A stretch of 64,000 nt of DNA, taken from positions 73,243-137,242 of the forward strand of contig JBAZKH010000001.1 of NCBI GenBank assembly GCA_041650935.1, read 5' to 3'. Positions 637-58,492 of this stretch are shown here, one piece after another. Under the pieces are notes generated by a model, which saw only the letters and a program-made list of their open reading frames with translations, was not told the DNA's origin and ran no database searches. Position numbers and translations under genes: made by a program. Numbering within the stretch: position 1 is the first letter of the stretch; the number at the start of each line of letters is the position of its first letter. This stretch comes from Candidatus Omnitrophota bacterium. Its GTDB lineage: Bacteria; Omnitrophota; Gorgyraeia; 2-01-FULL-45-10.

Positions 637-1317
637 ATGAATAAAAATATTGCCGTAATCATACCGGCCCTGGACAGGAACAGGTATCACGAAGAAGGCG
701 ATCTGGTCAGGTTTGGCGACCTTACTTTGCTGGAGTGGAAGTTTATCCAGTTGGAAAAGTTCACAGATAAGAAGAATATCTATGTATCTACTCCCTCCCG
801 TAAAGTCGAAAAGGTGGTGAAGGAGTCCGGTATTAATGTTATCAGGCGTAAGAAAGGCATAGATCTTGCCACTACGGTATATGACTCCGTGAAAGCGGCG
901 AGCGGTGAAATAATAATGTGGACGCACGCGACATCCCCTTTTGTCAGTCATAAAGATTTCGATAATATGTTCAACAAGTTCATGCGGCTGCCGAAAAAGT
1001 ACGATAGTCTTATTTCCGTCTACAGGCTGCAGGAGATGATCATTTATAAAAATGAACCGCTTAACTTCGATACCGTAAAAGAATGCTGGAGGAGCGGCAT
1101 CGAGCCGGTCTACAGGATAACGAACGGTTGCTCGATAGCCAGGAGAGATACGTGCCTGAAATACAAGAACCATTTCGGGATGAGCCCGTTTTTATTCGAG
1201 ATCGACATACTATCGTCGATGGAGATAAAGGACGTCGAGGATCTTCCCATAGCGAACGAGATGATATCGCTCTTTATAAAAAAAGAGATCGGTGCGTCCG
1301 CGCGGAGCCGGGGATGA
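637..1317 (+). CDS. Acylneuraminate/CMP-sugar-acid cytidylyltransferase family protein (CMP-NeuAc / CMP-Kdo synthetase-like)
   Basis: N-terminal IAVIIPALDRNRY resembles the IAIIPARxGSKxxxxKN signature. The size of 226 aa fits the family, and there is an ATGA stop/start overlap with the next gene. Confidence 0.65.
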   Translation: MNKNIAVIIPALDRNRYHEEGDLVRFGDLTLLEWKFIQLEKFTDKKNIYVSTPSRKVEKVVKESGINVIRRKKGIDLATTVYDSVKAASGEIIMWTHATSPFVSHKDFDNMFNKFMRLPKKYDSLISVYRLQEMIIYKNEPLNFDTVKECWRSGIEPVYRITNGCSIARRDTCLKYKNHFGMSPFLFEIDILSSMEIKDVEDLPIANEMISLFIKKEIGASARSRG

Positions 1318-16160: not shown

Positions 16161-16161
16161 T

Positions 16162-17202
16162 ATGCGGGTGCTTTTTATAGTACCGTATCCGACCTCGGGG
16201 CCCAGTAACAGGTTCCGGGTCGAGCAATACCTGCCCTATCTGGAAGGGCGGCGGGTATCGTATTGCCTGAGGCCGTTTTGCAACCCTGATTTCTATCTTC
16301 TCTTACGAAAGAGAGGGCATTATTTCAAGAAGGCCTATTACCTCCTGGTCTTCCTCTTCAGCAGGTTCGTCGATCTCCTCAGGGTACCCTACTACGACAT
16401 CGTATTTATCCACAGGGAAGCTTTCCCGGCCAAGGACTATATATTCGAGTGGCTATTCAGGATATTCAGCCGGAGGCTCGTCTATGATTTTGACGATGCC
16501 ATCTTCCTGAAGAAGCCCGCCAAGACCAGGGCAATAATCAGGTTGTCGGACCATATAATAGCGGGGAACGGTTTTCTAAAAAGTTACGCCGCGTCGCTTA
16601 ATAATGCGGTAACTATTTTACCGACGTGCATAGATACCGGCAGATACAGGCCGATCGAAAAGAAATGCGCCGGAGAAAAGATAGTAATAGGATGGATGGG
16701 GACGGCCACTACGTCGGAATATTTAGGAGAGCTCCGGAATGTCTTTAAATTCATACTGGATAAATACGGGAATGTGGAGATCAGGATCGTCGGGGGGATG
16801 TCCGAAGGCTTCCTGGGACCCGGCCTGGTATATAAGAACTGGTTTTTGGATAGTGAGATACTCGACCTGCAGGAATTCGATATAGGTATTATGCCTATGC
16901 CGGATAGCGATTGGACCAAAGGTAAATGCGCCTTTAAGATAATACAGTATATGGCGGTCGGGATCCCGTCGGTAGCCGCGCCGGTCGGCATGAACCTGGA
17001 AGTCATACGCCACGGCGTGAATGGTTTCTTTGCGTCTGGCGAAAAGGAATGGATTGACAGGCTGTCGCGCCTTATAGAGGATGCCGCCTTGCGCGGCGAG
17101 ATCGGCAAAAACGGAAGAAGAACGATCGAGGAGCGATACGCGCTCAAGATCGCGGAACCAAGATTCGTTGGAATATTGGAACAGACGTTGTCGAAAAGGT
17201 AA
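16162..17202 (+). CDS. Family 4 glycosyltransferase
   Basis: ATG immediately after the TAA of the previous gene gives MRVLFIVPYPTSGPS. C-terminal QYMAVGIPSVAAPVGMNLEVIRHGVNGFFA. The ORF-track start at 16123 is an upstream extension. Confidence 0.75.
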   Translation: MRVLFIVPYPTSGPSNRFRVEQYLPYLEGRRVSYCLRPFCNPDFYLLLRKRGHYFKKAYYLLVFLFSRFVDLLRVPYYDIVFIHREAFPAKDYIFEWLFRIFSRRLVYDFDDAIFLKKPAKTRAIIRLSDHIIAGNGFLKSYAASLNNAVTILPTCIDTGRYRPIEKKCAGEKIVIGWMGTATTSEYLGELRNVFKFILDKYGNVEIRIVGGMSEGFLGPGLVYKNWFLDSEILDLQEFDIGIMPMPDSDWTKGKCAFKIIQYMAVGIPSVAAPVGMNLEVIRHGVNGFFASGEKEWIDRLSRLIEDAALRGEIGKNGRRTIEERYALKIAEPRFVGILEQTLSKR

Positions 17203-23687: not shown

Positions 23688-23846
23688 TAAGGTAGTCCCT
23701 CGGTGCAGGACTTAGATTGTTGCACCTCGGGACGATTTGTCTAAAGTTAGATACAAATTAAGGTAGCCCCTCGCTGCCGGAGTTAGACAGTAGCAGCTCG
23801 GGACGATTTGTCAGAGTTAGATAATAACAAATCGGAGGTATGTATA
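23688..23846 (+). promoter_or_regulatory. Structured 5' leader: 2 tandem units of conserved RNA module A (bipartite hairpin) each followed by module B hairpin; terminal B hairpin abuts the SD
   Basis: Unit 1 is GTCCC-tc-GGTGCA-[ggacttagattgt]-TGCACC-tc-GGGAC. Unit 2 is GCCCC-tc-GCTGC-[cggagttagacagta]-GCAGC-tc-GGGAC, with compensatory inner-stem changes. Then GATTTGT-[cagagttagataata]-ACAAATC, then GGAGG, then GTG 23847. Confidence 0.6.
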
Positions 23847-24954: not shown

Positions 24955-26169
24955 ATGGCAATGGTCCGGAAAGATGGAAATAAGATTAGGATAGTCAGGG
25001 TGATAACCAGGCTGAATATAGGCGGCCCGGCTATCCATACGATATTGCTTACAGAGGGCATAAATAAAGAGATTTTCGAGACGCATCTTGTGGCCGGTAT
25101 GCCTGATGCGTCCGAGGGTGATCTTTCAGGGTTGGCGCGGCGGCAGAATATCAGCGTCGATTTTATACCCGAACTCGGCAGGGAGATAAGTTTTAAAGAT
25201 ATTACGGCTTTCGTGAAACTGCTGAAGATATTGTTGAAAGTACGGCCGGATATAATCCATACGCATACGGCCAAAGCGGGAACGCTTGGAAGGCTCGCCG
25301 CTATCCTGGCGGGCGTTCCGGTCAGGATACATACTTTCCACGGGCATATCTTCGACGGTTATTTCAGCCCGGTAAAGACAAAGTTCTTTCTTGCGATCGA
25401 GAAGTTCCTGGGGGTTTTTACCGACAGGGTTGTAGTGGTCAGCGAAAAGGTCAGGAGCGAGATAGTCGATAAATTGAAGGTGGTGCCCGGCAAAAAGTGC
25501 ATAGTCCTGAAATTAGGATTCGATCTCAAAGATTTTTTGGATAATGACCGTTTCAAGGGCGCCCTTAAAAAAAAGCTGGGCATAGCGCCGGATGTCATGC
25601 TTATCGGTATTGTAGGCAGGCTCGTTCCGATAAAGAACCATACGATGTTTTTGGCTGTGGCGGGTAAGGTAATAGCGGGCATGCCGGATGAGCGGGTGAA
25701 GTTTCTCATAATAGGCGACGGGGAGTTGCGGCAGTCTCTGGCGGCGGCGGCCGCGCGGATGGGGCTTGCGGATAAGGTAATATTTACAGGCTGGATCAGA
25801 GATACCGCCAAAATATACGCGGATCTTGATATAGTGGTTCTCACATCCCTTAATGAAGGGACGCCGGTTTCGCTTATAGAGGCGATGGCGTCGGCAAAGC
25901 CGGTCGTTGCGACAGATGTAGGCGGTGTGGCGGATATAGTTAAGGATGGCGGGAACGGGTTATTGTTCGGCGCGGACGATATCGAAGGTTTTGCCCGGGG
26001 AGTATCGATTCTTATAAAAGACCGGCAAAAGAGATCGGAATTAGGCGCTGCCGGCAGGGAATTCGTAAGGAATACTTTCCATAAAGACCGGTTGATCAAA
26101 GAGATGGAGGATCTATATATGGATTGTTTAAGACGGAAGAATAAAATTAAATATGCCGGAGGGCGGTAA
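24955..26169 (+). CDS. Family 4 glycosyltransferase
   Basis: IVRVITRLNIGGPAIH N-terminus; VLTSLNEGTPVSLIEAMASAKPVVATDVGG...NGLLF. Confidence 0.8.
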   Translation: MAMVRKDGNKIRIVRVITRLNIGGPAIHTILLTEGINKEIFETHLVAGMPDASEGDLSGLARRQNISVDFIPELGREISFKDITAFVKLLKILLKVRPDIIHTHTAKAGTLGRLAAILAGVPVRIHTFHGHIFDGYFSPVKTKFFLAIEKFLGVFTDRVVVVSEKVRSEIVDKLKVVPGKKCIVLKLGFDLKDFLDNDRFKGALKKKLGIAPDVMLIGIVGRLVPIKNHTMFLAVAGKVIAGMPDERVKFLIIGDGELRQSLAAAAARMGLADKVIFTGWIRDTAKIYADLDIVVLTSLNEGTPVSLIEAMASAKPVVATDVGGVADIVKDGGNGLLFGADDIEGFARGVSILIKDRQKRSELGAAGREFVRNTFHKDRLIKEMEDLYMDCLRRKNKIKYAGGR

Positions 26170-26175
26170 CTAAAG

Positions 26176-27162
26176 ATGAAAAATCTTATAACGGGCGGCG
26201 CGGGTTTTATTGGATCGCATTTGGCGGAAAGGTTACTTGCCAGAGGCGAGGAGGTCGTGATAATAGATAACCTTTCGACCGGTTCCATGAAGAATATAGA
26301 GCATCTTAAGAGCGACCCGAACTTTTCTTATCATATCGATACTATAATGAATAAGGGGTTGATGAAACGTCTCATTAAAGGGAGCGATGCCGTTTACCAT
26401 CTGGCCGCGGCCGTCGGCGTTAAGTATATAATCGATAACACCCTGGACTCTATCAACACTAATGTTGAAGGTACCCAGGTAGTCTTGAGCCTTGCAAACA
26501 GGCTTGGCAATAAAAAAGTAATAGTGGCCTCGACGTCGGAGATATACGGCAAGGACAGGCCGGGGAAGAGGATATTCAAAGAGGATGACGACAGGGTCCT
26601 GGGCGCTACGACCATATCGAGGTGGAGTTACTCCTGCACGAAGGCGATCGACGAATTTCTTGCGCTCGCATATTGGAGAGAGAAAGGGCTGCCCGTTGTT
26701 ATAGTGAGATTCTTCAACACCTGCGGGCCCAGGCAGACGGGCAGGTATGGCATGGTTGTGCCGCGATTTATCTCTCAGGCGCTTTCGGGTAAGCCGATAA
26801 CGATATACGGCGACGGTAAACAGTCGAGATGCTTTACCGATGTCAGGGATACCGTTGCGGCGCTAGTCTTGTTGGCAAAGAATAAAAAAGCGGTGGGCAA
26901 GGTCTTCAATATAGGCAATCCGGATAATAAGGTGACCATAGGAGCATTGGCGAAAAAGATAAAGGTAATGACATGTTCCGGGTCCAGGATCGTAACGATC
27001 CCTTACGAGAAAGCGTTCAAGGAAGGCTTCGAGGATATGCGGCATAGAGAGCCGGACATAACCAGGCTGAAGTCGTTTACAGGTTTTAGGCCTAAGATTA
27101 AAATGGACGATATGCTCGAAGACATGATAGAGGATATCGGTAGAAGCAGGGATAGGATATGA
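26176..27162 (+). CDS. NAD-dependent sugar epimerase/dehydratase (UDP-GlcA decarboxylase / UDP-glucose 4-epimerase-like)
   Basis: LITGGAGFIGSHL; STSEIYG; YSCTKAIDE. Confidence 0.8.
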   Translation: MKNLITGGAGFIGSHLAERLLARGEEVVIIDNLSTGSMKNIEHLKSDPNFSYHIDTIMNKGLMKRLIKGSDAVYHLAAAVGVKYIIDNTLDSINTNVEGTQVVLSLANRLGNKKVIVASTSEIYGKDRPGKRIFKEDDDRVLGATTISRWSYSCTKAIDEFLALAYWREKGLPVVIVRFFNTCGPRQTGRYGMVVPRFISQALSGKPITIYGDGKQSRCFTDVRDTVAALVLLAKNKKAVGKVFNIGNPDNKVTIGALAKKIKVMTCSGSRIVTIPYEKAFKEGFEDMRHREPDITRLKSFTGFRPKIKMDDMLEDMIEDIGRSRDRI

Positions 27163-28193
27163 ACTATATCCAGATAATAGATGTCTTTTTTATTTCAGGT
27201 TTCGTAACATACTTATTGACGCCCTTTGTCAGGACGATGGCGGTAAAATTCAATTATCTGGACCACCCTCAGAATAATAAGGTGCACGCTCACCCCACGC
27301 CTCTCCTGGGAGGTATTGCCATATTCGCTGCTTTTATAATAGCCCTGTTGTCGAAAGAAGCGATCGTCTCTTTATCGCCGGTACGGGCGATGCTTATAGG
27401 CGCATTTATACTGGTTATCATAGGGCTTATCGACGACAAGATGGGGATGATGCCGAATTTCAAGCTTCTCGGCCAGTTTCTGGCGGCGATGGTCGTAATA
27501 AAGGCCGGGTTGAGGGTGGAGTTCATACAAAACTATTATCTCAGCGTTGTAGTTACCTATATATGGATAATCGGTATAACCAATGCCTTTAACCTGCTCG
27601 ACAACATGAACGGCCTATCTGCGGGGATAGCTTTTATAGCGTCCGTATTCTTCGGCAGTATATCGTACATGAACGGGCAGTATGAGGTTAGCGCCGTGGC
27701 TTTTGCGCTTGCGGGGAGCTCTCTTGGATTTCTCAGATACAATTTTCCAAAGGCCGGCATATTCATGGGCGATACCGGAAGTCTCGTATTAGGTTACGTG
27801 CTTGCCGCCATAGCGATAATGGGAAGCTGGAAGACATATATATTTACGACCTCTATCATGATACCGGTGCTGGTACTCGGTTACCCGATATTTGATACGA
27901 CGCTCGTTTCCGTAATGCGCATACTGGAAGGAAGATCGGTCTTCCAGGGCGGCAAGGATCATTCTTCGCACCGCCTGGCTCTTATGGGATTTAAGCGCTT
28001 CAGGACCGTTCTCGTTATTTATGCTATATGCATCTTTTTGGGGACGGTAGCGCTTGTTATAAGCAATGTGCATTGGCGTATAGGCCTTCCCATACTTGCC
28101 GCTACGGCTATTATAATGCTTGGCTTCGGTGTGCGTCTAGGCTTTGTCGACACAAAACGCTATGGAAGGAAAAAAGGCGCTTATGAAGATTGA
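27159..28193 (+). CDS. Polyprenyl-phosphate N-acetylhexosamine-1-phosphate transferase (WecA/MraY family)
   Basis: NAFNLLDNMNGLSAG and MGDTGSLVLGY motifs; ~10 TM helices. Confidence 0.85.
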   Translation: MNYIQIIDVFFISGFVTYLLTPFVRTMAVKFNYLDHPQNNKVHAHPTPLLGGIAIFAAFIIALLSKEAIVSLSPVRAMLIGAFILVIIGLIDDKMGMMPNFKLLGQFLAAMVVIKAGLRVEFIQNYYLSVVVTYIWIIGITNAFNLLDNMNGLSAGIAFIASVFFGSISYMNGQYEVSAVAFALAGSSLGFLRYNFPKAGIFMGDTGSLVLGYVLAAIAIMGSWKTYIFTTSIMIPVLVLGYPIFDTTLVSVMRILEGRSVFQGGKDHSSHRLALMGFKRFRTVLVIYAICIFLGTVALVISNVHWRIGLPILAATAIIMLGFGVRLGFVDTKRYGRKKGAYED

Positions 28194-29412
28194 CAAAGCG
28201 AAAACAGTTTTCTTCCTGGATAAGGCGGCGGCATGGTCGCTCTATGCAATTATCTTTACACTGCCATTCTCCAAGTCCATGGTAGAGATCTCCATAGTCA
28301 TTGGCATCCTGAGTGTAGTAGCGAAGAAGATCATTGTTAAAGAACGGTTTGTTGCGAATACTCACATAGAGATACTGCTTTATATATTTATCATGGCATC
28401 CCTTATCTCTATATTTAATACGCAGGCATCTCAGATGGGGCTTAGCATGAAGGCTTTATTCTCCAAGGTGCTTAAGTTCGCGGCGCTTTTCCTAATAGCT
28501 AAAGATGTCATAAATACGCGCGAAAAACTTAAGGATTTTCTGATAATCGCTTCGTTGTCATGCGTTATCATAGTGATAGACGCTTTTGTGCAGTATTACG
28601 TAACGCACATGGATTTTTTGCATAACTACCCGGCCTTCTTGTACAGGCCGGAGGTACAATCTGTGCGCGGTGTGCCGACGGCATCATTCCCTTTCCAAAA
28701 CGATTTTGCCGCCTGGATACTGGTATTCATCTTCCCGGCATTATGTTTAGCCATCTTTGGAAAAATCGGCCGGCGTGGGACCGTATTCGCAGTATCGGCC
28801 TTTATAGGATTGCTTTATCTCTTGATCCTGACAAAAGTCCGAGGCGCGTGGATAGCTTTTGTTATCTCTTTTATAATACTGTCGGTCGTAAAGTTGAAGA
28901 AGGCCGGATGGGCCCTACTAGTAGTTATCGTATTATTGGGTCTTGCCTATAACGGGCGGAATATCATGTCCAGGCCGAGCATAAACGACAGGTCGGTTAT
29001 GTGGAATAACGGCATGACAATCTTTATGCGTCACCCGGTAATAGGCAATGGATTGAATACTTTTTATGATAACTATATGAAGGTCCGTGAGGATAAGCAT
29101 AAAAATATCCGCGGCAGTTATGCCCATAATTGTTATCTACAAATGGCGGCGGATATAGGGTTGGCAGGGCTTGCCGCTTTCCTTCTGTTTGCGATCGCCG
29201 TCCTGGCGTCCGGTTTCCGGGCGCTCAAGGCCGCCGGGGATCCGCTATGTTATTCTTTGATCCTTGGGATAAGCCTGGGGCTTATAGCGTTTCTGGTGCA
29301 TAGCTCGGGAGATACAAACCTCTATTCGCTTCCTTTAGCGGCTCTCTTCTGGCTCTCCTCCGGTATATTATTGGCTGTGGTCAAAATTTCCGGACCAAGG
29401 AGCGGGGCTTAG
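28183..29412 (+). CDS. O-antigen ligase / Wzy-like polytopic membrane protein
   Basis: ATG 28183 (MKIDKAK) overlaps the upstream stop. ~12 TM segments with a large periplasmic loop near the C-terminus, typical of the Wzy_C / O-antigen ligase family. Confidence 0.55.
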   Translation: MKIDKAKTVFFLDKAAAWSLYAIIFTLPFSKSMVEISIVIGILSVVAKKIIVKERFVANTHIEILLYIFIMASLISIFNTQASQMGLSMKALFSKVLKFAALFLIAKDVINTREKLKDFLIIASLSCVIIVIDAFVQYYVTHMDFLHNYPAFLYRPEVQSVRGVPTASFPFQNDFAAWILVFIFPALCLAIFGKIGRRGTVFAVSAFIGLLYLLILTKVRGAWIAFVISFIILSVVKLKKAGWALLVVIVLLGLAYNGRNIMSRPSINDRSVMWNNGMTIFMRHPVIGNGLNTFYDNYMKVREDKHKNIRGSYAHNCYLQMAADIGLAGLAAFLLFAIAVLASGFRALKAAGDPLCYSLILGISLGLIAFLVHSSGDTNLYSLPLAALFWLSSGILLAVVKISGPRSGA

Positions 29413-30489
29413 GTGAAGATACTGATCATTAACCCCTTTGGGATAGGAGATGTGCTCTTTTCGACCCCACTGATAGAGGCTATAAAGAGAATATTCCCGC
29501 AGTCTTATATCGGATATATCTGTAACAGGAGGGTCTCGGAACTAATAAGGACGAATCCGCACCTGGGCAGGATATTCGTATATGAAAAAGACGATTACAG
29601 GGAGATATGGCGCCACTCCAAGATGAGATGCCTGGTAAAGATACTCGCTTTTTTGCGGGATGTCAGGAAAGAGCGGTTCGACGTATCGATAGACCTTTCG
29701 CTGAATTACCAATACAGCATGCTCTTTAAGCTGATAGGCATAAAGACGCGGGCGGGTTTCAATTACAGGAACAGGGGTAAGTTCCTTACGCACAAAATAG
29801 ATATCGAAAGTTTCGACGATAAACATGTTGTTGAGCATTATCTCGATGTTTTACGGCTTCTGGGTGTCGATCCGTCGAAGGGCATAGCCGCTCCGAAAAT
29901 ATATGTCTCCGAAGAAAGCCGGCGTTTCGGTGAAAAATTTCTGGAAGAAAATAGTATCGCTAAGACGGACCTGCTGATAGGCATGGTGCCCGGTTGCGGC
30001 GCCAGCTGGGGACGGGATGCCGGCCGCAGGCGGTGGGAGGGTAAAAATTTTGCCATTGTTGCCGATAGGCTCATCGAAAAATATAACGCGCGGGTCGTTT
30101 TGCTGGGCAATTCCAAAGAGACAAATATATGCGAAGATGTCCGGGCGGCGACAAACGACAGGGCTATAAACTATAGCGGTAAGACCTCGATCGAAAAACT
30201 TATAGGTATTCTCAGCAGGTGCAAAGTCCTGATAACGAACGAAGGCGGTATGCTTCATATGGCGGCCAGCCTCGGTATCAGGACGGTGTCGATCTTCGGC
30301 CCTGTCGATGAGACCACCTACGGTCCGTATCCCAGGAGCGCAGACCATATTATCCTAGCCAAAAAGGACATTCCATGCAGGCCGTGTTATAAGCGGTTCA
30401 AATATAACGATTGCGATGAAAGGCGCTGTCTGGAGGCTATTACCGTCGATGAAGTCTTCCGGGCCGCGGAGGGCGCGATTAGGCGATGA
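29413..30489 (+). CDS. Family 9 glycosyltransferase (heptosyltransferase-like)
   Basis: MKILIINPFGIGDVLFSTPLIEAIKR...; C-terminal GGMLHMAASLGIRTVSIFGP. Confidence 0.8.
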   Translation: MKILIINPFGIGDVLFSTPLIEAIKRIFPQSYIGYICNRRVSELIRTNPHLGRIFVYEKDDYREIWRHSKMRCLVKILAFLRDVRKERFDVSIDLSLNYQYSMLFKLIGIKTRAGFNYRNRGKFLTHKIDIESFDDKHVVEHYLDVLRLLGVDPSKGIAAPKIYVSEESRRFGEKFLEENSIAKTDLLIGMVPGCGASWGRDAGRRRWEGKNFAIVADRLIEKYNARVVLLGNSKETNICEDVRAATNDRAINYSGKTSIEKLIGILSRCKVLITNEGGMLHMAASLGIRTVSIFGPVDETTYGPYPRSADHIILAKKDIPCRPCYKRFKYNDCDERRCLEAITVDEVFRAAEGAIRR

Positions 30490-31640
30490 AGTGCGATATC
30501 GTAATACCGGTCTGGAACCAGCCGGAGACTACCAGGGAATGCATCGCGGCCATAAGAAGGACGACGCGCTATCCTTACAGGCTCATAATCATAGACAATG
30601 GGAGCGGAGACGAGACGCGGAATTACCTGAAAGAAACGGCGCGGCTATATCCGTCTGAAGTAGAGATTGTGCGGAACGATACGAATCTCGGGTACGTTAA
30701 GGCGGTGAACCAGGGGCTTAAAATTTCAACCGCGCCCTACGTATGTGTTATGAATAACGATACCATACCAGGCGCAGGATGGCTGGAGAGGCTGATAAAT
30801 TTCGCCGAGACACACCGCGGGATAGGGCTGATGAATCCTCTGTGTAACGGTCACGGCAGCCTTTCGATAGATGAGTACGCCGCGCATGTCGCACGGAACG
30901 CGGATAGATATATGGAGATGAACCAGTGCTTCGGATTTTGCACGCTCATCCGCCGCGAGGTCATAGATAAAGTGGGCTGCCTGGACGAGGTCTTCGGGAT
31001 GGGCGGTTACGACGATACGGATTATTCGATGAGGGCATGCAGGGCAGGATACCTTTGCGCGTCGGTCCACTCCGCGTATGTATATCACAAAGAGCACGTC
31101 TCTTTCAGGGCCATGGGTGCCAAAGACAGTTCTACGCTTAAAGGGCAGGCGGAATACCTTAAAAAGTGGCCGCGCCATCTGCGGGTCGGATTGACTTTTT
31201 CTGTCGATAGCAGGACCGATAGGCCTGAGATCGCTTCTGTTTTGAAGGCGATATTGTTTCTGGCCAGGGAGTGGTGCTGGGTCAATTTCTGGATCATAGG
31301 CGACGAAAAAGAGAACAGGGAGAAGATAGCGTCGGTTTCTGCCGAAATCGGCATGCCGCTGCACCAGAATATAAAATTCAATTTTATCCCGGCGGCCTTT
31401 GCGAAACTCCAGACTTTAACGAGAGTTATCGAGCGCGCCTTCGGAACGAAGAGAAGGAAGAGGTATGATGCGGTCCTTGTCGATAACGACGGTGTTGCGG
31501 CGCTCCTGAATTTCTTCTTCGTCGTGCATAATACAAGGATAATCCTGGCAAAGCCCGGATCCGGGATGACGGCGGAAGCATGCCGGATGATTGCCGAGAT
31601 ACGGAAGAGCGGGGAGAGGTTGTACGCAATTAACGCGTAG
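30486..31640 (+). CDS. GT2 domain + conserved ~130-aa C-terminal extension of unknown function (paralog A of 4)
   Basis: MKCDIVIPVWNQPETTRECIAAI...IIIDNGSGDET...DTNLGYVKAVNQG; KKWPRHLRVGLTFSVDSR extension. Confidence 0.7.
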   Translation: MKCDIVIPVWNQPETTRECIAAIRRTTRYPYRLIIIDNGSGDETRNYLKETARLYPSEVEIVRNDTNLGYVKAVNQGLKISTAPYVCVMNNDTIPGAGWLERLINFAETHRGIGLMNPLCNGHGSLSIDEYAAHVARNADRYMEMNQCFGFCTLIRREVIDKVGCLDEVFGMGGYDDTDYSMRACRAGYLCASVHSAYVYHKEHVSFRAMGAKDSSTLKGQAEYLKKWPRHLRVGLTFSVDSRTDRPEIASVLKAILFLAREWCWVNFWIIGDEKENREKIASVSAEIGMPLHQNIKFNFIPAAFAKLQTLTRVIERAFGTKRRKRYDAVLVDNDGVAALLNFFFVVHNTRIILAKPGSGMTAEACRMIAEIRKSGERLYAINA

Positions 31641-31659
31641 TTTAAGGAGGGGTTCTACA

Positions 31660-32778
31660 GTGGAGAAGGTGCTGGTTACGGGAGGGGCGGGATTCATCGG
31701 TTCCCATCTGGTTGATGAGCTCATCAACCGTAAGTATAAGGTAAAGGTCCTCGATATCTTCGATCGGCAGGTCCATGGCGGTAAGAGGCCCGGCTATTTG
31801 AATAAAAGATGCGAATATATAAAAGGGGACGTTCGCAGGCCCGGGGACCTGGAGAAAGCGGTCTCTGGCGTAAACGTGGTCTTCCACCTCGCCGCACAGG
31901 TCGGAGTGGGGCAATCGATGTATCAGATCGCGAAGTACGTTGACCATAACACTCTCGGCACGGCCATCCTTATGGAATATATTATATCGAACCGCCGCAG
32001 GCTCGGTATCAGGAAGGTAGTGGTTGCGAGTTCGATGAGCATATACGGCGAAGGCGCTTACCGGTGCAGCAAGTGCGGCCCGGCCGAACCTGTAGAGAGG
32101 GATGAAGCGGATCTGAAGAAGAGGGTCTGGGAATATTCATGCCCTAAGTGTTCCGGCCCGCTGAAACCGGCGGCGACTACGGAAGAGAAGAGTTTGCGTT
32201 CAAATTCTATTTATGCGATTTCGAAGAAGGATCAGGAAGAGATAGTGCTCAATCTGGCCAAGGCGTATAAGCTGCCTGCAGTAGCTTTAAGGTTCTTCAA
32301 CGTTTACGGGCCCAGACAATCCCTTTCCAATCCTTACACGGGGGTTTGTGCCATATTCCAGTCGCGGATAAAGAACGATAACCCTGTCCTGATATACGAA
32401 GACGGCCGCCAGACGAGGGATTTCATAAGCGTAAAGGATATAGCCGCCGCTAATATCTTTGTCATGAATTCTCCGGCGGCGGACTACCGGTATTTCAATG
32501 TCGGAACCGGGCGGGCCACCAGCGTCCTTGATATAGCCAGGACGCTCAGCCGTCTTTACGGTAAAGAACCAGACATGATAATAAAGAACGAATACAGGAT
32601 GGGCGATATCCGTCACTGTTTCGCGGATATATCGAAAATAAAGAGCATAGGCTTTAAGCCGTCCGTCAATTTCGACGACGGCATGCAAGAGATGGTGGAG
32701 TGGGGCAAACGGGCCGTTTCCGTCGACAGGGTTAATGAGGCGGATAAGCTGCTTGCGCGGATGAATTTAAAGATATAG
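31660..32778 (+). CDS. SDR sugar epimerase/dehydratase with an inserted CxxC...CxxC zinc-ribbon
   Basis: RBS AGGAGGGG then GTG gives MEKVLVTGGAGFIGSHL. Catalytic SSMSIYGE ... YAISKK. A 40-aa insert YRCSKCG...YSCPKCSG (four Cys) lies between the catalytic Ser and Tyr. Confidence 0.75.
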   Translation: MEKVLVTGGAGFIGSHLVDELINRKYKVKVLDIFDRQVHGGKRPGYLNKRCEYIKGDVRRPGDLEKAVSGVNVVFHLAAQVGVGQSMYQIAKYVDHNTLGTAILMEYIISNRRRLGIRKVVVASSMSIYGEGAYRCSKCGPAEPVERDEADLKKRVWEYSCPKCSGPLKPAATTEEKSLRSNSIYAISKKDQEEIVLNLAKAYKLPAVALRFFNVYGPRQSLSNPYTGVCAIFQSRIKNDNPVLIYEDGRQTRDFISVKDIAAANIFVMNSPAADYRYFNVGTGRATSVLDIARTLSRLYGKEPDMIIKNEYRMGDIRHCFADISKIKSIGFKPSVNFDDGMQEMVEWGKRAVSVDRVNEADKLLARMNLKI

Positions 32779-36554: not shown

Positions 36555-37571
36555 ATGAACTGCGATATTGTTATACCTGTCTGGAATCAGCTTGCCCTTA
36601 CGCGGGACTGCATAGATTCCATCTTCAAGAATACCGCGGATATTGCATTCAAGCTGATCGTAATCGATAATGCCAGTAATGAGGAGACGAAGTCATATCT
36701 TGCAGACCTCCGGAACCAGAAACCCGGGCAGGTCATCGTCGTATGGAACGCGGCCAATCTTGGTTTCGTGAAGGCGGTTAATCAGGGTATAGCCGCTTCC
36801 AGCGCGCCGTACGTCTGCCTGTTAAATAACGATACGCTCGTTACGCGGAATTGGCTTAAAGAGATGATCGCGGTCGCGGAATCCGCCGACGATATCGGGC
36901 TCGTGAACCCGTCGAGCAATAATCTGGGGCAGGCGCCTGCGCGGGGTGAGCCTATCGAGCTTTATGCCGGGAAAATAGCTAAAGAGTCCGGCGGTTTTAT
37001 CGAACTGGGCGCGGCGATAGGGTTCTGTATGCTCATCAAGAGACGGCTCTTCGAAAAGATAGGGGTCTTCGACGAAATATACGGTATGGGGAATTTCGAC
37101 GATACGGACTTTTCGCGGAGGGCGGTGCAGGCGGGCTACCGGTGCGTAAGGGCCTGCGGCGCCTATGTCTATCACAGGCAGAATACGTCTTTCGATAAGG
37201 TCAGGACCTTCGACGAAGATTTTAAGCGCAACCGCGAGATATATGAGTTCAGGTGGGGACGGCCGCGGAGGATCGCGTATATCCTCGACAAAGTCGATAC
37301 CAACAATTTAAGACGGATAAACGGCGATGCGATGACGCTTGCGAGGAGCGGCAACTGGATATGGTATTTCATAAAGGATCCTATAGCCGTTCCGAAACAT
37401 TCCAATATTATCATTAAATATTTCCAGGGACAGTGGTTCTACCCAAAAGTCATATTCACTATATTAAAGAAAAAGAAGAGATTTAACGAGATAAATATCG
37501 GCGCCGAACGGGTGGGCGGGTTTTTATCGGGCCTGACTTTCGTCCATAAAGCGAAGATAAAATTTTTCTGA
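36555..37571 (+). CDS. GT2 domain + C-terminal extension (paralog C of 4)
   Basis: MNCDIVIPVWNQLALTRDCIDSI...VIDNASNEET...ANLGFVKAVNQG; FRWGRPRRIAYILDKV extension. Confidence 0.7.
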   Translation: MNCDIVIPVWNQLALTRDCIDSIFKNTADIAFKLIVIDNASNEETKSYLADLRNQKPGQVIVVWNAANLGFVKAVNQGIAASSAPYVCLLNNDTLVTRNWLKEMIAVAESADDIGLVNPSSNNLGQAPARGEPIELYAGKIAKESGGFIELGAAIGFCMLIKRRLFEKIGVFDEIYGMGNFDDTDFSRRAVQAGYRCVRACGAYVYHRQNTSFDKVRTFDEDFKRNREIYEFRWGRPRRIAYILDKVDTNNLRRINGDAMTLARSGNWIWYFIKDPIAVPKHSNIIIKYFQGQWFYPKVIFTILKKKKRFNEINIGAERVGGFLSGLTFVHKAKIKFF

Positions 37572-37587
37572 ACAGGTAGAGTCAGTT

Positions 37588-37887
37588 TAAAGGTAGTCCC
37601 TCGGCGCGGGAGTGAGAGCGTTGCACCTCGGGATGATTTGCAGGAGTGAGATAAGGGCAAATCACGGTACAATTTGTCTAAAGTTAGATACAGATTAAGG
37701 TAGTCCCTCGGCGCGGGAGTTAGATTGTTGCGCCTCGGGATGATTTGCAAGAGTGAGATAAGGGCAAATCACGGGACGATTTGTCTAAAGTTAGATATAA
37801 ATTAAGGTAGTCCCTCGCTGCCGGAGTTAGACAGTGGCAGCTCGGGACGATTTGTCTAAAGTTAGATAATAACAAATCGGAGACATA
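37588..37887 (+). promoter_or_regulatory. Structured 5' leader: three tandem 107-nt units (module A + module B/B') ending at the SD of the GT2 gene
   Basis: GTCCC at 37596, 37703 and 37810, an exact 107-nt period. Inner stems GGCGCG/TGCACC (imperfect), GGCGC/GCGCC and GCTGCC/GGCAGC covary. Loops carry GGAGTTAGA. B' is GATTTGCA-[rgagtgagataaggg]-CAAATC. The final B is GATTTGT...ACAAATC, then GGAG, then ATG 37888. Confidence 0.6.
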
Positions 37888-38649
37888 ATGGAGAAGATAC
37901 CGGTATCGGTAGTGGTCATAACAAAGAACGAAGAAAATAATATAGCAGATTGCTTAAAGAGCGTCTCGTGGGCGGACGAGATCGTGGTGCTCGATGACGA
38001 TTCTACCGACAAGACCGTAACCATAGCCAGGCAATATACCGACAGGGTCTCCGCGCGCAAGATGGACATAGAGGGGCGGCACAGGAACTACGCGTACGGC
38101 CTGGCTAAAAATAAGTGGGTCCTGTCGCTCGATGCCGATGAACGCGCAAGCGCCGAGTTGGAAAACGAATTGCGCGGGCTCTTCAACGGCGGGATGAAAG
38201 CGGCGGCCTATTCGATACCTATAAAGACTTTCATAGGAAAACGCTGGATAAGATACGGCGGATGGTATCCCGCCCCTAAGGTGCGGCTCTTCGACAAAGG
38301 GCGCTTCAAGTATGAAGAGGCCGAGGTCCATCCCAGGGCATTTATAGACGGTACATGCGGCCATCTTACGAAGGATATAGTCCATTATTCATACAGGGAT
38401 TTTCACGATTTCTTCCAGAGTCTCAACAACCAGACGACGTTAGAGGCAAAAAAATGGTTCAAAGAACGCCGAAAGATAGGGTTTTTGAAGATGTACCGGA
38501 AGGCCATAAGCAGATTCTTGAAGGCCTATCTCCAGAAGGCCGGTTTCAGGGACGGGCTCCTGGGGTTCGTCATATCTTATGGCGGCGGCCTGTATCAATT
38601 CATGAGCTACGTAAAATACCGCGAGATGCTTGATAATGAAGGCGAATAG
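37888..38649 (+). CDS. Small family 2 glycosyltransferase (KdtX/WaaE-like)
   Basis: VSVVVITKNEENNIADCLKSVSWADEIVVLDDDSTDKT. Preceded by three tandem structured leader repeats and GGAG. Confidence 0.7.
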   Translation: MEKIPVSVVVITKNEENNIADCLKSVSWADEIVVLDDDSTDKTVTIARQYTDRVSARKMDIEGRHRNYAYGLAKNKWVLSLDADERASAELENELRGLFNGGMKAAAYSIPIKTFIGKRWIRYGGWYPAPKVRLFDKGRFKYEEAEVHPRAFIDGTCGHLTKDIVHYSYRDFHDFFQSLNNQTTLEAKKWFKERRKIGFLKMYRKAISRFLKAYLQKAGFRDGLLGFVISYGGGLYQFMSYVKYREMLDNEGE

Positions 38650-49213: not shown

Positions 49214-49761
49214 AACGCCCTGCTCAACACCAACCCCTCGGGGGACCCCTCCAGCGAGAATGGCAAAAATTTTACTAGGGGAAGAGGAAAAGAAAAGTAA
49301 AACAATAAAACTTTATGATCGAAACGCCAACATTATTCATTTTAGGTGCAGGTGCAAGTGAACCATTTAAATACCCAACCAGTTGCCATCTAAGGGAAGA
49401 GATTAGAGGGGGGGCTGGGCAACGACATATCATTATTAATGCATTTAAACTATAATGAGTAGCGAGCAACTGATGTTTAAACGGTAGCTATATCTATTCC
49501 ACCCCGGGGTGGAATGGGAGCATAGTAGGGCGGGTGACGCGGCTTCTAGCCTTTTGTCGAATAGGGCGATTACGGGGTGGGGTTGGTGCTTTCGTCTTTG
49601 CCGTAGCATGATGACCGTTTAGGTTATATAGGTAGAGCTGATTAAATCAAGGATGCCGATATTAAAAGCCGCGCATGCACGCGGATAAAGCCCTATAGAA
49701 CAAAAGGCGAAGCCGTGGCAGGACCCGCCAGGGGTTAAGGTGGCCATTTAAGGAGTGGTAC

Positions 49762-57969: not shown

Positions 57970-57979
57970 TGCTATAATG
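57970..57979 (+). promoter_or_regulatory. Extended -10 element TGcTATAAT upstream of rubredoxin
   Basis: TGCTATAAT lies 23 nt upstream of RBS AGAGGAG. Confidence 0.35.
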
Positions 57980-58001: not shown

Positions 58002-58160
58002 ATGGATAAGTATAAGTGTTTAGTTTGTGGATATATTTACGATCCGGCAAAAGGGGATCCGGATAACGGTGTGCCGGCAGGGACGAGTTTTGACAAGATA
58101 CCCGATGACTGGGTATGCCCGGAGTGCGGCGCTCCGAAGAGTGAGTTCGAAAAAGTGTGA
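58002..58160 (+). CDS. Rubredoxin
   Basis: 52 aa with CLVCGYIY...[10 protein letters not shown], the two CxxCG knuckles. Below the ORF-track length cutoff. RBS AGAGGAG. Confidence 0.8.
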
Positions 58161-58249
58161 AGCGGTCCCTCGGCGCGGCCTATAATTAGATAGTAGCCTT
58201 GCCCGGGACGGTTTGTAGAAGTAAAACTACAACAAATCGGAGGTAAAAA
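58161..58249 (+). promoter_or_regulatory. Divergent single copy of the same leader module upstream of porD
   Basis: GGTCCC-tc-GGCGCGG...CCTTGCC-c-GGGAC (degenerate inner stem), then GTTTGTAG...CTACAACAAATC, then GGAGG, then ATG 58250. It shares the GTCCCTCGG and ACAAATCGGAGG ends with the other copies. Confidence 0.45.
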
Positions 58250-58438
58250 ATGAAGGCAAAAATTGACGCAGATACATGCATTGGTTGCGGGCTTTGTGTG
58301 ACTACGTGCCCCGAGGTTTACAAGATGCAAGACGATAAAGCGGTTGTTTATGCAAGCGTCGCTCCTAATGGGTCGGAGGAGAGTTGTCAAAAGGCTGCAG
58401 ATGAATGCCCCGTGACGGCAATAACCGTAACCAGGTAA
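58250..58438 (+). CDS. porD: 4Fe-4S ferredoxin (PFOR delta subunit-like)
   Basis: CIGCGLCVTTCP ... CQKAADECP; immediately upstream of porGA. Preceded by a divergent structured leader copy plus GGAGG. Confidence 0.7.
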   Translation: MKAKIDADTCIGCGLCVTTCPEVYKMQDDKAVVYASVAPNGSEESCQKAADECPVTAITVTR

Positions 58439-58492
58439 AGCGCGAACCCCGCACCTTCTAGATAGGGTGCAGGGGCGGGAAGAAGGTGCGGT

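What the first reader, a model, noticed from the sequence alone, without database searches (positions are those of the whole stretch)
37572..37887. Tandem 107-nt structured RNA repeats with compensatory base changes and GGA loops, ending at the ribosome-binding site of a GT2 gene
Three head-to-tail units each contain a bipartite hairpin GTCCC-tc-[inner stem]-loop-[inner stem]-tc-GGGAY. The outer 5-bp stem and the tc/tc internal loop are invariant. The inner stem differs between copies in a strictly compensatory way (GGCGC/GCGCC, GCTGCC/GGCAGC, GGTGCA/TGCACC across all loci). This is the signature of selection on RNA structure rather than on DNA sequence. Each hairpin loop presents GGAG/GGAC followed by TTAGA. 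A second hairpin (GATTTGN...NCAAATC) follows, and the last one ends 2 nt before the GGAG Shine-Dalgarno. Multiple GGA-in-loop hairpins plus a GGA-containing SD is the architecture recognised by CsrA/RsmA-type translational repressors, and also that of CsrB/RsmZ decoy RNAs. Alternatively it could be a new riboregulator or a phage-like anti-termination element controlling the glycan genes. I do not recognise it as any described Rfam family.
Basis: seen in the sequence. Interest (0 to 1): 0.9.

Follow-up and report, generated by a model that had tools for sequence, protein, structure and literature searches.

The report
Dispersed twin-hairpin repeat of Omnitrophota
The tandem repeat is real, but it is three copies of a roughly 75-base two-hairpin element found repeatedly across genomes of the uncultured phylum Omnitrophota, sitting flush against a gene's ribosome-binding site or a tRNA end; it appears undescribed, is not a CsrA-type regulator of the sugar genes, and most likely acts as a general RNA 'punctuation mark' between genes.

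Summary
Window 37590-37878 carries three head-to-tail copies of a two-hairpin element. H1 is GTAG-tagged and GC-rich, with an invariant UC/UC internal loop and a covarying inner stem. H2 is GAUUUG...CAAAUC. The array ends flush against the GGAG ribosome-binding site of a GT2 gene.

It is not specific to the glycan cluster. The window holds two more loci (23689-23833 and 58159-58238). Pattern and covariance-model searches found more than 150 further distinct copies, almost all in Omnitrophota MAGs and metagenomes.

- About 70% of copies abut a Shine-Dalgarno site, with the start codon mostly 10-13 nt downstream. Downstream genes include EF-Tu, DnaK, GAPDH, HU/IHF, ribosomal proteins, TatA and ferredoxin.
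- About 10% abut nucleotide +1 of a tRNA.
- Inverted variants abut tRNA 3' CCA ends.

Covariation is strong (13 pairs with double changes; 0 of 500 shuffles reach the observed score). There is no Rfam match and no literature hit.

GGA in the loops is clade-specific (both loops in 6 of 121 copies), so the CsrA/RsmZ reading fails.

The closest known kind is the GTAG-tagged REP/BOX/MIRU class of dispersed repeats. This element differs in being anchored to the downstream start site, in having a second hairpin, and in forming head-to-tail arrays.

Best guess at function: transcribed RNA punctuation, acting as a decay barrier and as an insulator that presents the ribosome-binding site. This function is inferred, not shown.

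The parts
36555..37571 (+). Upstream gene (GT2 glycosyltransferase). Its stop codon lies 18 nt before the array.
   Evidence: ORF list; Pfam PF00535, E=6.6e-24
37590..37663 (+). Element copy 1. Tag AAGGTAG (37590-37596), H1 (37596-37634, inner stem GGCGC/GCACC with one C.A mismatch), H2B (37635-37663).
   Evidence: Sequence; model R1 68.6 bits
37664..37696 (+). Extra half-module of unit 1: A, then CGGTAC (remnant of the H1 3' arm), then a shortened H2C (AATTTGTCTAAAGTTAGATACAGATT).
   Evidence: Sequence. The same 'H2B-A-CGGGAC-H2C' layout recurs in L070, L118 and L091.
37697..37770 (+). Element copy 2. Tag, H1 (37703-37741, GGCGC/GCGCC), H2B (37742-37770).
   Evidence: Sequence; R1 76.5 bits
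37771..37803 (+). Extra half-module of unit 2: A, then CGGGAC, then a shortened H2C (GATTTGTCTAAAGTTAGATATAAATT).
   Evidence: Sequence
37804..37878 (+). Element copy 3, the canonical form. Tag, H1 (37810-37848, GCTGCC/GGCAGC), H2C (37849-37878).
   Evidence: Best hit of the calibrated model, 87.9 bits
37879..37890 (+). GGAG Shine-Dalgarno (37879-37882) immediately after H2, then a 5-nt spacer and the ATG (37888-37890) of the GT2 gene 37888-38649. G37879 can pair with C37848 as the 8th pair of H2.
   Evidence: Sequence; Pfam PF00535; Y-R pair table
23689..23759 (+). Second locus, copy 1. H1 at 23695-23733 (GGTGCA/TGCACC), shortened H2 at 23734-23759.
   Evidence: 69.9 bits
23760..23849 (+). 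Second locus, copy 2. H1 at 23766-23804 (GCCCC variant), H2 at 23805-23833, GGAGG at 23834-23838, and the GTG start (23847) of a DUF4330 gene.
   Evidence: 79.7 bits
58159..58253 (+). Third locus, a diverged copy between the rubredoxin gene (58002-58160) and the ferredoxin gene. H1 at 58165-58209, H2 at 58210-58238 (GGTTTG/CAAATC, a G.U pair on the + strand), GGAGG at 58239-58243, ATG at 58251.
   Evidence: R1 44.4 bits, E=2.7e-8; sequence

Best explanation
The array is three head-to-tail copies of a dispersed, modular, two-hairpin repeat family that I found almost only in Candidatus Omnitrophota.

Structure of each unit:
- a 5' tag, most often GTAG;
- H1, a GC-rich REP-like imperfect palindrome (UCCC / UC.UC internal loop / variable 5-7 bp stem / 11-17 nt loop);
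- directly abutting it, H2, an 8-bp AU-rich hairpin (Y-GAUUUG-N...N-CAAAUC-R).

What is shown:
- The unit lies on the sense strand of transcribed DNA.
- It ends exactly where the Shine-Dalgarno site or a tRNA begins.
- Both hairpins keep their pairing through compensatory changes.

What is inferred about function: in the RNA it acts as 'punctuation' between cistrons, and as a 5'-terminal cap structure on primary transcripts.
- H1 and H2 form a stable, self-contained block. It shields the upstream cistron's 3' end and the downstream RNA's 5' end from exonucleolytic or 5'-end-dependent decay.
- The block stops upstream coding sequence from pairing with the ribosome-binding site or the tRNA.
- It presents the GAGG core single-stranded at a fixed position next to a helix.

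What is inferred about spread: copies multiply within a genome by a DNA-level copy-and-paste or conversion process of REP type. They are kept where the unit fits between a stop codon and a ribosome-binding site. Tandem arrays such as this one arise by unequal recombination.

It is not a dedicated regulator of the glycan genes.
For: Family and distribution:
- 44 loci in genome contigs, 42 of them titled Omnitrophota MAGs, with up to 17 loci in one MAG.
- The window holds 3 loci in 64 kb.

Structure:
- 97.5% and 95.5% of cells are paired.
- 6 and 13 pairs show double-sided changes.
- 0 of 500 shuffles reach the covariation score.
- RNAalifold gives the same fold.
- The 5' arm CCCTCG was not part of the metagenome search pattern, yet it is present in 82 of 89 copies.
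- The eighth pair of H2 reads C-G 94, T-A 20, T-G 3, C-A 3.

Anchoring to the downstream RNA:
- 119 of 165 distinct hits have a start codon 3-23 nt after CAAATC, mostly at 10-13 nt.
- tRNAs start 0-1 nt after the element.
- The distance to the upstream ORF varies from 0 to more than 400 nt.

Transcription:
- All copies are co-oriented with the gene they abut.
- Many lie between co-directional genes. In 10 cases the TAG of the tag is the upstream stop codon.
- In L052 and L020 an extended -10 box (TGTTATAAT) lies 8 nt upstream of H1, so H1 would be at the very 5' end of the rubredoxin transcript.

Downstream genes include EF-Tu, DnaK, GAPDH, IHF/HU, L21, S16, S20, S6, TatA and GlnA.

An intercistronic hairpin seems to be a general need. 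In rubredoxin-ferredoxin spacers that lack the element, unrelated hairpins occupy the same place (L020, L070).

Copy-and-paste spread:
- Loop sequences are genome-specific, not locus-specific. The rplU loci L022, L027 and L046 carry their own genome's loop type.
- Filled and empty orthologous sites exist: L043 has AAGTAG[element]GGAGG where the window has GCGTAG-TTTAA-GGAGG.
- Tandem copy number varies between loci (L135).
Against: - No expression, RNA-end or half-life data exist. Every functional step is inferred.
- A pure hairpin-barrier role does not explain why the outer stem, the UC/UC loop and the H2 stem are sequence-invariant across species. That invariance points to a sequence-reading partner, either a protein or a DNA-level enzyme.
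- G.U pairs are not enriched over A.C (13 against 23; 8 against 5-7).
- The reverse complement folds about 3 kcal/mol better as RNA in 108 of 135 copies. The sense-strand RNA is therefore not demonstrably the selected form.
- Inverted variant copies abut the CCA 3' end of tRNAs (L112, L105, L140, L076). This fits a DNA palindrome used in either orientation.
- Copies next to tRNAs cannot serve translation.
- The association with highly expressed genes is qualitative and was not tested against a background.
Confidence: 0.45

Rival explanations
1. A REP-type DNA element that is essentially selfish or neutral. H1 with its GTAG tag, and H2, would be hairpins read in single-stranded DNA by a RAYT/IS200-like HUH enzyme, or spread by microhomology between 'TAG' and 'GGAGG'. 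Position and orientation would reflect where insertion is tolerated in very short spacers. Any RNA effect would be incidental.
For: - GTAG is the commonest 4-mer before the palindrome (63 of 138; G[TA]AG 75 of 138).
- The TAG of the tag serves as a stop codon, as described for GTAG REPs (PMC3733652).
- The imperfect palindrome has a conserved mismatch.
- Stems are almost purely Watson-Crick, with G.U no commoner than A.C.
- Loops are homogenised within each genome.
- Filled and empty orthologous sites exist.
- Inverted copies lie at tRNA 3' ends, whose reverse complement reads TGGnGGAG and is therefore SD-like.
- Tandem copy number varies.
Against: - Anchoring is to the downstream start at 0 nt, with variable upstream distance. 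This is the opposite of uni-REPs, which sit near the upstream ORF at varying distances from the downstream one (PMC3733652).
- Copies are almost all in one orientation and arrays are head-to-tail, whereas REPs are mostly HH/TT dimers.
- The same genes carry the element in different species: rplU, tuf, tRNA-Gly, tRNA-Ser and a ThiS-like gene.
- The H2 closing pair uses a nucleotide of the flanking gene and still covaries.
- No Y1 transposase was found in about 1 Mb of flanking DNA.
Confidence: 0.25
2. A sequence-specific processing or binding site. A dedicated endoribonuclease (Cas6-like or RNase III-like), a self-cleaving fold, or a ribosome- or RNAP-associated protein would read the invariant stems. 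It would either cut at the H2 foot to create defined 5' ends for mRNAs and tRNAs, or recruit ribosomes as a translational enhancer for highly expressed genes.
For: - The stems are invariant across species while the loops and inner stem vary.
- H2 abuts the functional RNA in both orientations: the 5' ends of mRNAs and tRNAs, and the CCA 3' ends of tRNAs.
- H1 and H2 abut with no spacer, which would allow a coaxial rod of about 21 bp.
- Downstream genes are those expected to be highly expressed.
Against: - The boundary is not constant relative to tRNA +1. In C-type copies the G that closes H2 is tRNA nucleotide +1 (L009, L038). In T-type copies an extra A precedes +1 (L007, L076, L095). One fixed cut could not make both mature ends, so RNase P is still needed.
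- An RNA-binding protein would not read the reverse-complement copies as the same site.
- No ribozyme family matches, even at E<=10.
- Conserved positions lie in helices rather than junctions.
Confidence: 0.12
3. A cis-acting processive-antitermination or anti-pausing RNA, like the put RNA of phage HK022 or the eps-associated EAR element. It would modify RNA polymerase as it leaves the element.
For: - Two adjacent stem-loops of about 70 nt, on the sense strand, in long one-directional operons such as this 60-kb gene cluster.
- The presence before untranslated tRNAs would fit protection from Rho.
Against: - Many copies precede short single genes or 75-nt tRNAs, where processivity is irrelevant.
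- The position is fixed relative to the SD, not to promoters or terminators.
- Inverted copies exist.
- No terminators were found downstream to read through.
- The comparison with put rests on my recollection of its architecture only.
Confidence: 0.05
4. A terminator-plus-promoter cassette. H1 would terminate the upstream unit, and the GATTTG-N17-19-CAAATC region would be a promoter starting transcription at the SD or at tRNA +1.
For: - The spacing between GATTTG and CAAATC is narrow, at 17-20 nt.
- The element precedes tRNAs and highly expressed genes.
Against: - The H2 7th and 8th pairs covary, which a promoter does not require.
- CAAATC lacks the -11 A / -7 T geometry for a start at the following G. 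A start 7 nt downstream would fall past the SD or inside the tRNA.
- The consensus scan found no terminator and only chance-level promoter matches.
- Canonical TGnTATAAT promoters exist in these genomes, and in L052 and L020 they lie upstream of the element.
Confidence: 0.04
5. One reading: a CsrA/RsmA-repressed leader or a CsrB/RsmZ-like decoy, with GGA motifs displayed in hairpin loops.
For: In the window's clade both loops often contain GGAG/GGAC, and the SD is GGAG.
Against: - GGA is in both loops in only 6 of 121 copies, and A-N-GGA in 18 and 3.
- Whole clades have GGA-free loops.
- The element also precedes tRNAs.
- There is no match to any Csr/Rsm Rfam model.
- No csrA was found in about 1 Mb of local sequence (a weak test).
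Confidence: 0.02

Closest known systems
GTAG-tagged REP / BIME repeats (Di Nocera et al. 2013, PMC3733652; RAYT-associated REPs)
   Same: - A 39-nt GC-rich imperfect palindrome, preceded in about half the copies by GTAG.
- Sub-families with complementary stem changes.
- A conserved mismatch inside a long stem. The paper notes unpaired GA residues in P. aeruginosa GTAG-24.
- Intergenic, dispersed and transcribed.
- The TAG of the tag is used as a stop codon.
- Occasional clusters.
- REPs are also reported in PVC-group bacteria (Opitutus, Rhodopirellula).
   Different: - A second, AU-rich hairpin is fused without a spacer.
- The element is anchored at 0 nt to the downstream SD or tRNA, rather than to the upstream ORF's 3' end.
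- It is almost always in one orientation and forms head-to-tail arrays, whereas REPs are mostly HH/TT dimers.
- GTAG is present in 46% of copies, against more than 90% in most REP families.
- The core is conserved across many species, and at the same genes.
- No RAYT has been identified.
BOX elements of Streptococcus pneumoniae and MIRUs of mycobacteria (from my own knowledge, not checked here)
   Same: - Modular dispersed repeats with a variable number of internal modules.
- They lie in transcribed spacers, for MIRUs mostly within operons and in one orientation.
- They are predicted to fold as RNA.
   Different: - The sequences are unrelated.
- BOX and MIRU are not positioned flush with the SD.
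- MIRUs are thought to act through short overlapping ORFs (translational coupling), for which there is no sign here.
Intercistronic RNase III processing hairpins of phage T7 early mRNA, and 5'-terminal stabiliser hairpins such as the ompA leader (own knowledge)
   Same: - A conserved hairpin with an internal loop between cistrons, just upstream of the next ribosome-binding site.
- In some copies, a hairpin at the extreme 5' end of the transcript.
- This is the functional analogy I favour.
   Different: - No cleavage or stabilisation has been shown here.
- H1 alone (12-14 bp equivalents) is short for RNase III.
- The element is chromosomal, phylum-wide and multicopy.
CsrB/RsmZ decoys and CsrA-repressed leaders
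   Same: Several hairpins next to a GGA-containing SD; in this window, GGA in the loops.
   Different: - GGA loops are not conserved in the family.
- The element also precedes tRNAs.
- No Rfam match.

Membership tests
CsrA/RsmA target or CsrB/RsmZ-type decoy | Repeated (A)NGGA motifs in hairpin loops, conserved among homologues | tested here: not met
   Of 121 copies, GGA is in the H1 loop in 46, in the H2 loop in 20, and in both in 6. A-N-GGA occurs in 18 and 3.
CsrA/RsmA target or CsrB/RsmZ-type decoy | Match to a curated Csr/Rsm RNA model | tested here: not met
   No Rfam match at gathering scores across the window, and none among the three E<=10 hits at 37400-38000.
CsrA/RsmA target or CsrB/RsmZ-type decoy | A csrA/rsmA gene in the genome | tested here: inconclusive
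   tblastn with E. coli CsrA against the window and 152 loci (about 1 Mb) found nothing. Whole genomes were not available.
GTAG-tagged REP | A 20-40 bp GC-rich palindrome, high copy number, intergenic | tested here: met
   H1 is 39 nt. There are 3 loci per 64 kb in the window, 17 loci in MAG STD1_81, and all copies are intergenic.
GTAG-tagged REP | Terminal unpaired GTAG (or a close variant) in more than 90% of members | tested here: inconclusive
   GTAG in 63 of 138 copies, G[TA]AG in 75 of 138, and a G in the last position in 114 of 138. It is the commonest tag but far below 90%.
GTAG-tagged REP | Close to the 3' end of the upstream ORF, at variable distance from the downstream ORF; mostly inverted (HH/TT) dimers | tested here: not met
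   The distance to the downstream start is fixed and the upstream distance varies. Arrays are head-to-tail only.
GTAG-tagged REP | An associated RAYT (Y1/HUH) gene flanked by the repeats | not testable with these tools
Intrinsic terminator | A GC-rich hairpin followed by a U tract | tested here: not met
   0 terminator-like sites in 37300-38000. H1 is followed by GAUUUG only. Some inverted copies after tRNAs are followed by U-rich runs.
Sigma-70-type promoter | -35 and -10 hexamers placed to start transcription upstream of the SD or tRNA | tested here: not met
   Only chance-level matches. CAAATC is unsuitable as a -10 box. Real TGnTATAAT boxes lie upstream of the element in L052 and L020.
HK022 put-type antiterminator RNA | Two adjacent stem-loops that act on the transcribing polymerase | not testable with these tools
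   Only the two-hairpin layout can be compared. The activity needs an in vitro transcription experiment.
Any Rfam 15 family | Covariance-model match | tested here: not met
   The best hit is E=0.92, to a snoRNA model, which is noise.

The most novel reading that the evidence does not exclude
The invariant stems and the UC/UC loop are read by a dedicated Omnitrophota factor: a nuclease, a ribosome-platform protein or an RNAP-binding protein. The element would then be a phylum-wide 'expression punctuation code' that sets the 5' boundary, stability and translation rate of the most highly expressed mRNAs, and flanks tRNAs. It would be a new class of general cis-acting RNA signal rather than a passive REP-like repeat.
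Probability: 0.2. Interest if true: 0.85.

Novelty: new variant of a known kind. Interest (0 to 1): 0.68.

Why it matters
Omnitrophota are uncultured, mostly ultra-small bacteria whose gene-expression signals are essentially unknown.

This element is a conserved, strongly covarying structure of about 75 nt. By rough extrapolation from 3 loci in this 64-kb window, it may be present on the order of a hundred times per genome. It sits exactly at the ribosome-binding sites of core housekeeping genes and at tRNA ends.

If it works in the RNA, it is a general solution to a general problem: how to insulate and stabilise cistrons in tightly packed operons. It would also offer ready-made natural 'insulator' parts.

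If instead it is a REP-type mobile palindrome, it is an unusual one, because its placement is dictated by the downstream start site. That would bear on how such repeats spread and become domesticated.

Either way, it gives annotators a covariance model that marks true start codons and transcript boundaries in these MAGs.

Tried and rejected
- **Rfam.** Searched at gathering scores over the whole window and at E<=10 over the region. Found nothing.
- **Promoter and terminator reading.** The consensus scan was negative. A positional scan for -10 boxes upstream of 149 copies gave no general peak. The peak at -7 is the element's own TAAGGT, and several TAAAAT hits are stop codons. Only L052, L020 and L094 show clear promoters just upstream.
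- **Strand of function from G.U against A.C.** No asymmetry was found. The MFE comparison favours the reverse complement, because of GA/GA against UC/UC loop energies. This does not settle the question.
- **Kissing interaction between loops.** In the window, loop 1 UUAGA could pair with loop 2 UCUAA. This is not conserved in relatives (read).
- **Alternative proximal hairpin inside H2** (UUUGCC/GGCAAA or UUGUCUA/UAGAUAA). It is lineage-specific and was dropped.
- **Exact endonuclease in place of RNase P.** The junction differs by one nucleotide between C-type and T-type copies.
- **RfaH ops similarity** (GGTAG within GGCGGTAGnnTG). The match is only 5 nt, it is not universal in the family, and the element is not specific to glycan operons.
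- **Integron attC, CRISPR repeat, IS200/IS605 ends.** Considered from memory. The core sites and spacing do not fit, and no integrase, cas or tnpA genes were seen nearby.
- **Phage origin.** No match in viral contigs.
- **Exact-protein look-up of the downstream GT2.** Not on record.
- **Literature.** No paper holds the core sequences or describes an Omnitrophota RNA motif.
Full report
**1. The observation**

Window 37590-37869 is a tandem array: period 107, 2.6 copies, 87% matches. Read base by base, it has two 107-nt units and one 75-nt unit.

Every unit begins AAGGTAG. It then carries H1, a 39-nt hairpin: GTCCC, an unpaired TC, a 5-6 bp stem that differs between copies, a 13-15 nt loop, the complementary stem, an unpaired TC, and GGGAY.

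- In units 1 and 2, H1 is followed by H2B (GATTTGCARGAGTGAGATAAGGGCAAATC). Then come an A, a remnant of the H1 3' arm (CGGKAC) and a shortened H2C.
- In unit 3, H1 is followed by a full H2C (37849-37878). This runs straight into GGAG (37879-37882) and the ATG at 37888 of a GT2 glycosyltransferase gene.

- Two of the window's copies have one C.A mismatch in the inner stem.
- The last hairpin ends 0 nt, not 2 nt, before GGAG.

A second array lies at 23689-23833, before a DUF4330 gene. The covariance model later found a third, diverged copy at 58159-58238, between the rubredoxin and ferredoxin genes.

**2. It is a large family**

I scanned one genome per prokaryotic species for CCCTCG-N22-26-CTCGGGAYGATTTG. 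This gave 44 loci. Forty-two are titled Candidatus Omnitrophota MAGs, and the other two come from one 'Planctomycetia' bin. One MAG (STD1_81) contributed 17 loci and another (nzgw317) contributed 8.

IMG/VR viral contigs gave nothing.

A covariance model built from 50 copies found 71 hits at E<=1 (about 60 of them above 30 bits) and 115 hits at E<=0.01 in the two sets. That amounts to 165 distinct copies with their flanks.

No Rfam family matches. The paper library holds neither the core sequences nor any description of such a motif in Omnitrophota.

**3. Structure**

RNAalifold predicts the same two hairpins without guidance.

On the 50-copy alignment, 97.5% of cells pair. The four variable pairs of the H1 inner stem show double-sided changes in 17, 25, 23 and 4 copies, and the 7th pair of H2 does so in 14.

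On the 108 distinct metagenome copies, 95.5% of cells pair and 13 of 17 pairs show double-sided changes (218 cells). No shuffle out of 500 reaches the observed covariation score. All slid controls collapse to 14-56% pairing.

The 5' arm of H1, including the TC of the internal loop, was not part of the metagenome search pattern. It is nevertheless CCCTCG in 82 of 89 copies. Its invariance is therefore a finding rather than an artefact of the search.

The nucleotide after GGGA (Y) covaries with the first nucleotide after CAAATC (R): C-G 94, T-A 20, T-G 3, C-A 3. It covaries only weakly with the G of the tag. So:
- H2 is an 8-bp helix.
- Its closing pair uses either the first G of GGAGG, or nucleotide +1 of a tRNA, or an extra A.
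- H1 and H2 abut without a spacer.

Loop sequences are not conserved across genomes. They are similar among the copies of one genome, and even between the H1 and H2 loops of one genome.

**4. Context**

Of the 165 distinct hits:
- 119 have a start codon 3-23 nt after CAAATC. The mode is 10-13 nt, that is, an SD plus a normal spacer.
- About 15 abut a tRNA gene on its 5' side. The tRNAs are Ser, Leu, Gly, Lys and Pro, and the gap is 0 or 1 nt.
- About 10 are internal units of tandem arrays.
- About 7 are inverted variants (described under 'RNA or DNA?').
- The rest are low-scoring.

The distance to the upstream gene varies. Among 109 copies with enough upstream sequence, 43 have a co-directional ORF of at least 100 aa ending within 100 nt, and 36 of those end within 30 nt. 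In 10 cases the TAG of the GTAG tag is itself the stop codon. In other copies the upstream spacer reaches 400 nt or more. The element is therefore tied to the downstream RNA, not to the upstream gene.

Downstream genes, named by NCBIfam, include EF-Tu, DnaK, GAPDH, IHF/HU, ribosomal proteins L21, S16, S20 and S6, TatA and glutamine synthetase. By their N-termini, others include rubredoxin, ferredoxin, P-II, thioredoxin and many lipoproteins. The same genes carry the element in different species: rplU, tuf, tRNA-Gly(CCC), tRNA-Ser and a ThiS-like gene.

This rules out a function specific to the glycan cluster.

**5. The element is in the transcript and is not a promoter**

All copies point the same way as the gene they abut, and many lie between co-directional genes with no room for a promoter.

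In L052 and L020 an extended -10 box (TGTTATAAT) lies 8 nt upstream of H1. The rubredoxin transcript should therefore begin at the foot of H1. The window's own rubredoxin has a TGCTATAAT promoter (57970-57978) and no element.

The GATTTG...CAAATC region cannot serve as a sigma-70 promoter for a start upstream of the SD or the tRNA, and its stem covaries. The simple scan finds no terminator and only chance-level promoter matches. A positional scan for -10 boxes upstream of 149 copies shows no general peak.

**6. Turnover**

- STD1_81 is syntenic with window 24982-31889 at 73% identity. It has AAGTAG-[element]-GGAGG where the window has GCGTAG-TTTAA-GGAGG.
- Four rubredoxin-ferredoxin loci carry the element at the 5' UTR, in the spacer, at both, or at neither. 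Where the spacer lacks it, an unrelated hairpin sits there instead.
- L135 has three to four tandem units.
- The three-hairpin layout of the window's units 1-2 recurs in L070 (before GAPDH), L118 and L091.

Genome-specific loops at orthologous loci imply ongoing copying or conversion among the copies of a genome.

**7. RNA or DNA?**

This is not settled.

G.U pairs are very rare (13 of 1762 cells) and no commoner than A.C mismatches (23). Counts on the first set agree: 8 against 5-7.

As RNA, the reverse complement is about 3 kcal/mol more stable in 108 of 135 copies. This is mainly because the UC/UC loop becomes a tandem G.A loop.

Inverted variant copies abut the CCA 3' end of tRNAs. Examples are tRNA-Ser in L112 and L105, tRNA-Ala in L140 and tRNA-Gly in L076. 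In L112 the tRNA is bracketed by a direct copy and an inverted copy. On their own strand these copies are followed by TGGnGGAG, which resembles an SD. On the tRNA strand some are followed by U-rich runs.

These facts fit a palindrome that is propagated and constrained as DNA, as REPs are. They fit equally well a helix whose geometry, rather than its strand, matters.

**8. Comparison with known kinds**

H1 resembles the GTAG-tagged REP superfamily (PMC3733652):
- It is a 20-40 bp GC-rich palindrome with a GTAG tag. Here the tag is present in 63 of 138 copies.
- It has sub-families with complementary stem changes.
- It has a conserved mismatch in a long stem.
- It is intergenic and transcribed.
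- The TAG of the tag is used as a stop codon.

It departs from that family on features I could test:
- The tag is far below 90%.
- The position is fixed relative to the downstream start, not the upstream ORF.
- Arrays are head-to-tail, not HH/TT dimers.
- A second hairpin is fused to it.

No RAYT could be sought properly.

Functionally, the closest analogies come from my own knowledge. They are the intercistronic RNase III hairpins of phage T7, 5'-terminal stabiliser hairpins, and synthetic insulators placed before ribosome-binding sites.

The CsrA/RsmZ model fails its defining test. GGA is in both loops in only 6 of 121 copies. It also cannot account for the tRNA-adjacent copies.

A single fixed endonucleolytic cut replacing RNase P is unlikely. 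The H2 closing nucleotide is tRNA +1 in C-type copies, but an extra A lies before +1 in T-type copies.

**9. Verdict**

The finding is a genuine, apparently undescribed, structured repeat family found almost only in Omnitrophota. The array in the window is an ordinary multi-copy locus of that family.

I favour, at about 0.45, a REP-like element that works in the transcript as punctuation. It would act as a decay barrier for the flanking cistrons, an insulator, and a presenter of the ribosome-binding site.

The main rival, at about 0.25, is that it is essentially a selfish DNA palindrome. The most exciting reading not excluded, at about 0.2, is that a dedicated factor reads the invariant stems.

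All functional statements are inferences from anatomy and context. Transcript-end mapping and reporter assays would decide between them.

Noticed in passing
window 58159-58238: A third, diverged copy of the element lies between the rubredoxin gene (58002-58160) and the ferredoxin gene (58251-58439). It has a longer H1 and a G.U pair in H2 (GGTTTG/CAAATC).
   Followed up: yes
L112 222-464; also L105 7271-7435, L140 7038-7188, L076 1757-1895: Inverted variant copies abut the CCA 3' end of tRNA genes. In L112 a tRNA-Ser is bracketed by a direct copy at its 5' end and an inverted copy at its 3' end. On the tRNA strand the internal loop becomes a tandem G.A, and a U-rich run sometimes follows, so these copies may act as tRNA terminators.
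   Followed up: partly
L101 7017-7105 and 11181-11289; L091 533-659: Variant elements share an extra conserved 5' flank (TGAGTCCATGTACGCAATAAAAGGAAG). They are followed by sequences that read as the reverse complement of tRNA 3'-end fragments (...CCACCA). These could be att-site duplications of integrated elements.
   Followed up: no
L052 401-477: A variant whose H2 (AAATTTTAC...GTAAAATT) holds the AAGGAG ribosome-binding site in its loop and the TTG start of ferredoxin at its 3' foot. Here the hairpin would occlude the start site rather than present it.
   Followed up: no
window 49362-49761: A 400-nt spacer with no ORF, lying before the gene at 49762 and containing GC-rich self-complementary stretches. 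No Rfam match at E<=1. It may be an unannotated RNA or a long leader.
   Followed up: partly
window 1-64000: In my crude ORF-based gene call, 55 of 58 genes are on the + strand, as one nearly uninterrupted co-directional series. The stretch 21815-47081 is a large glycan-biosynthesis cluster with GT1/GT2/GT4 glycosyltransferases, a carbamoyltransferase and a B12-radical SAM enzyme.
   Followed up: partly
window 16161-17080: A 920-nt stretch left empty by my crude gene call reads like glycosyltransferase coding sequence continuing from the previous gene. It could be a frameshift, a pseudogene or a missed start.
   Followed up: no
L118 about 880-1160 (- strand) and L140 6355-6630: A conserved 90-aa ORF (MEEKKS[LP]RDDE[PQ]VPIVAPLKVL...) of unknown function follows the element in two different metagenome contigs.
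   Followed up: no
window 57970-57978; L052 153-161; L020 (- strand) about 2680: Canonical extended -10 promoters (TGCTATAAT, TGTTATAAT) lie upstream of rubredoxin. These Omnitrophota therefore appear to use ordinary sigma-70-type promoters.
   Followed up: partly
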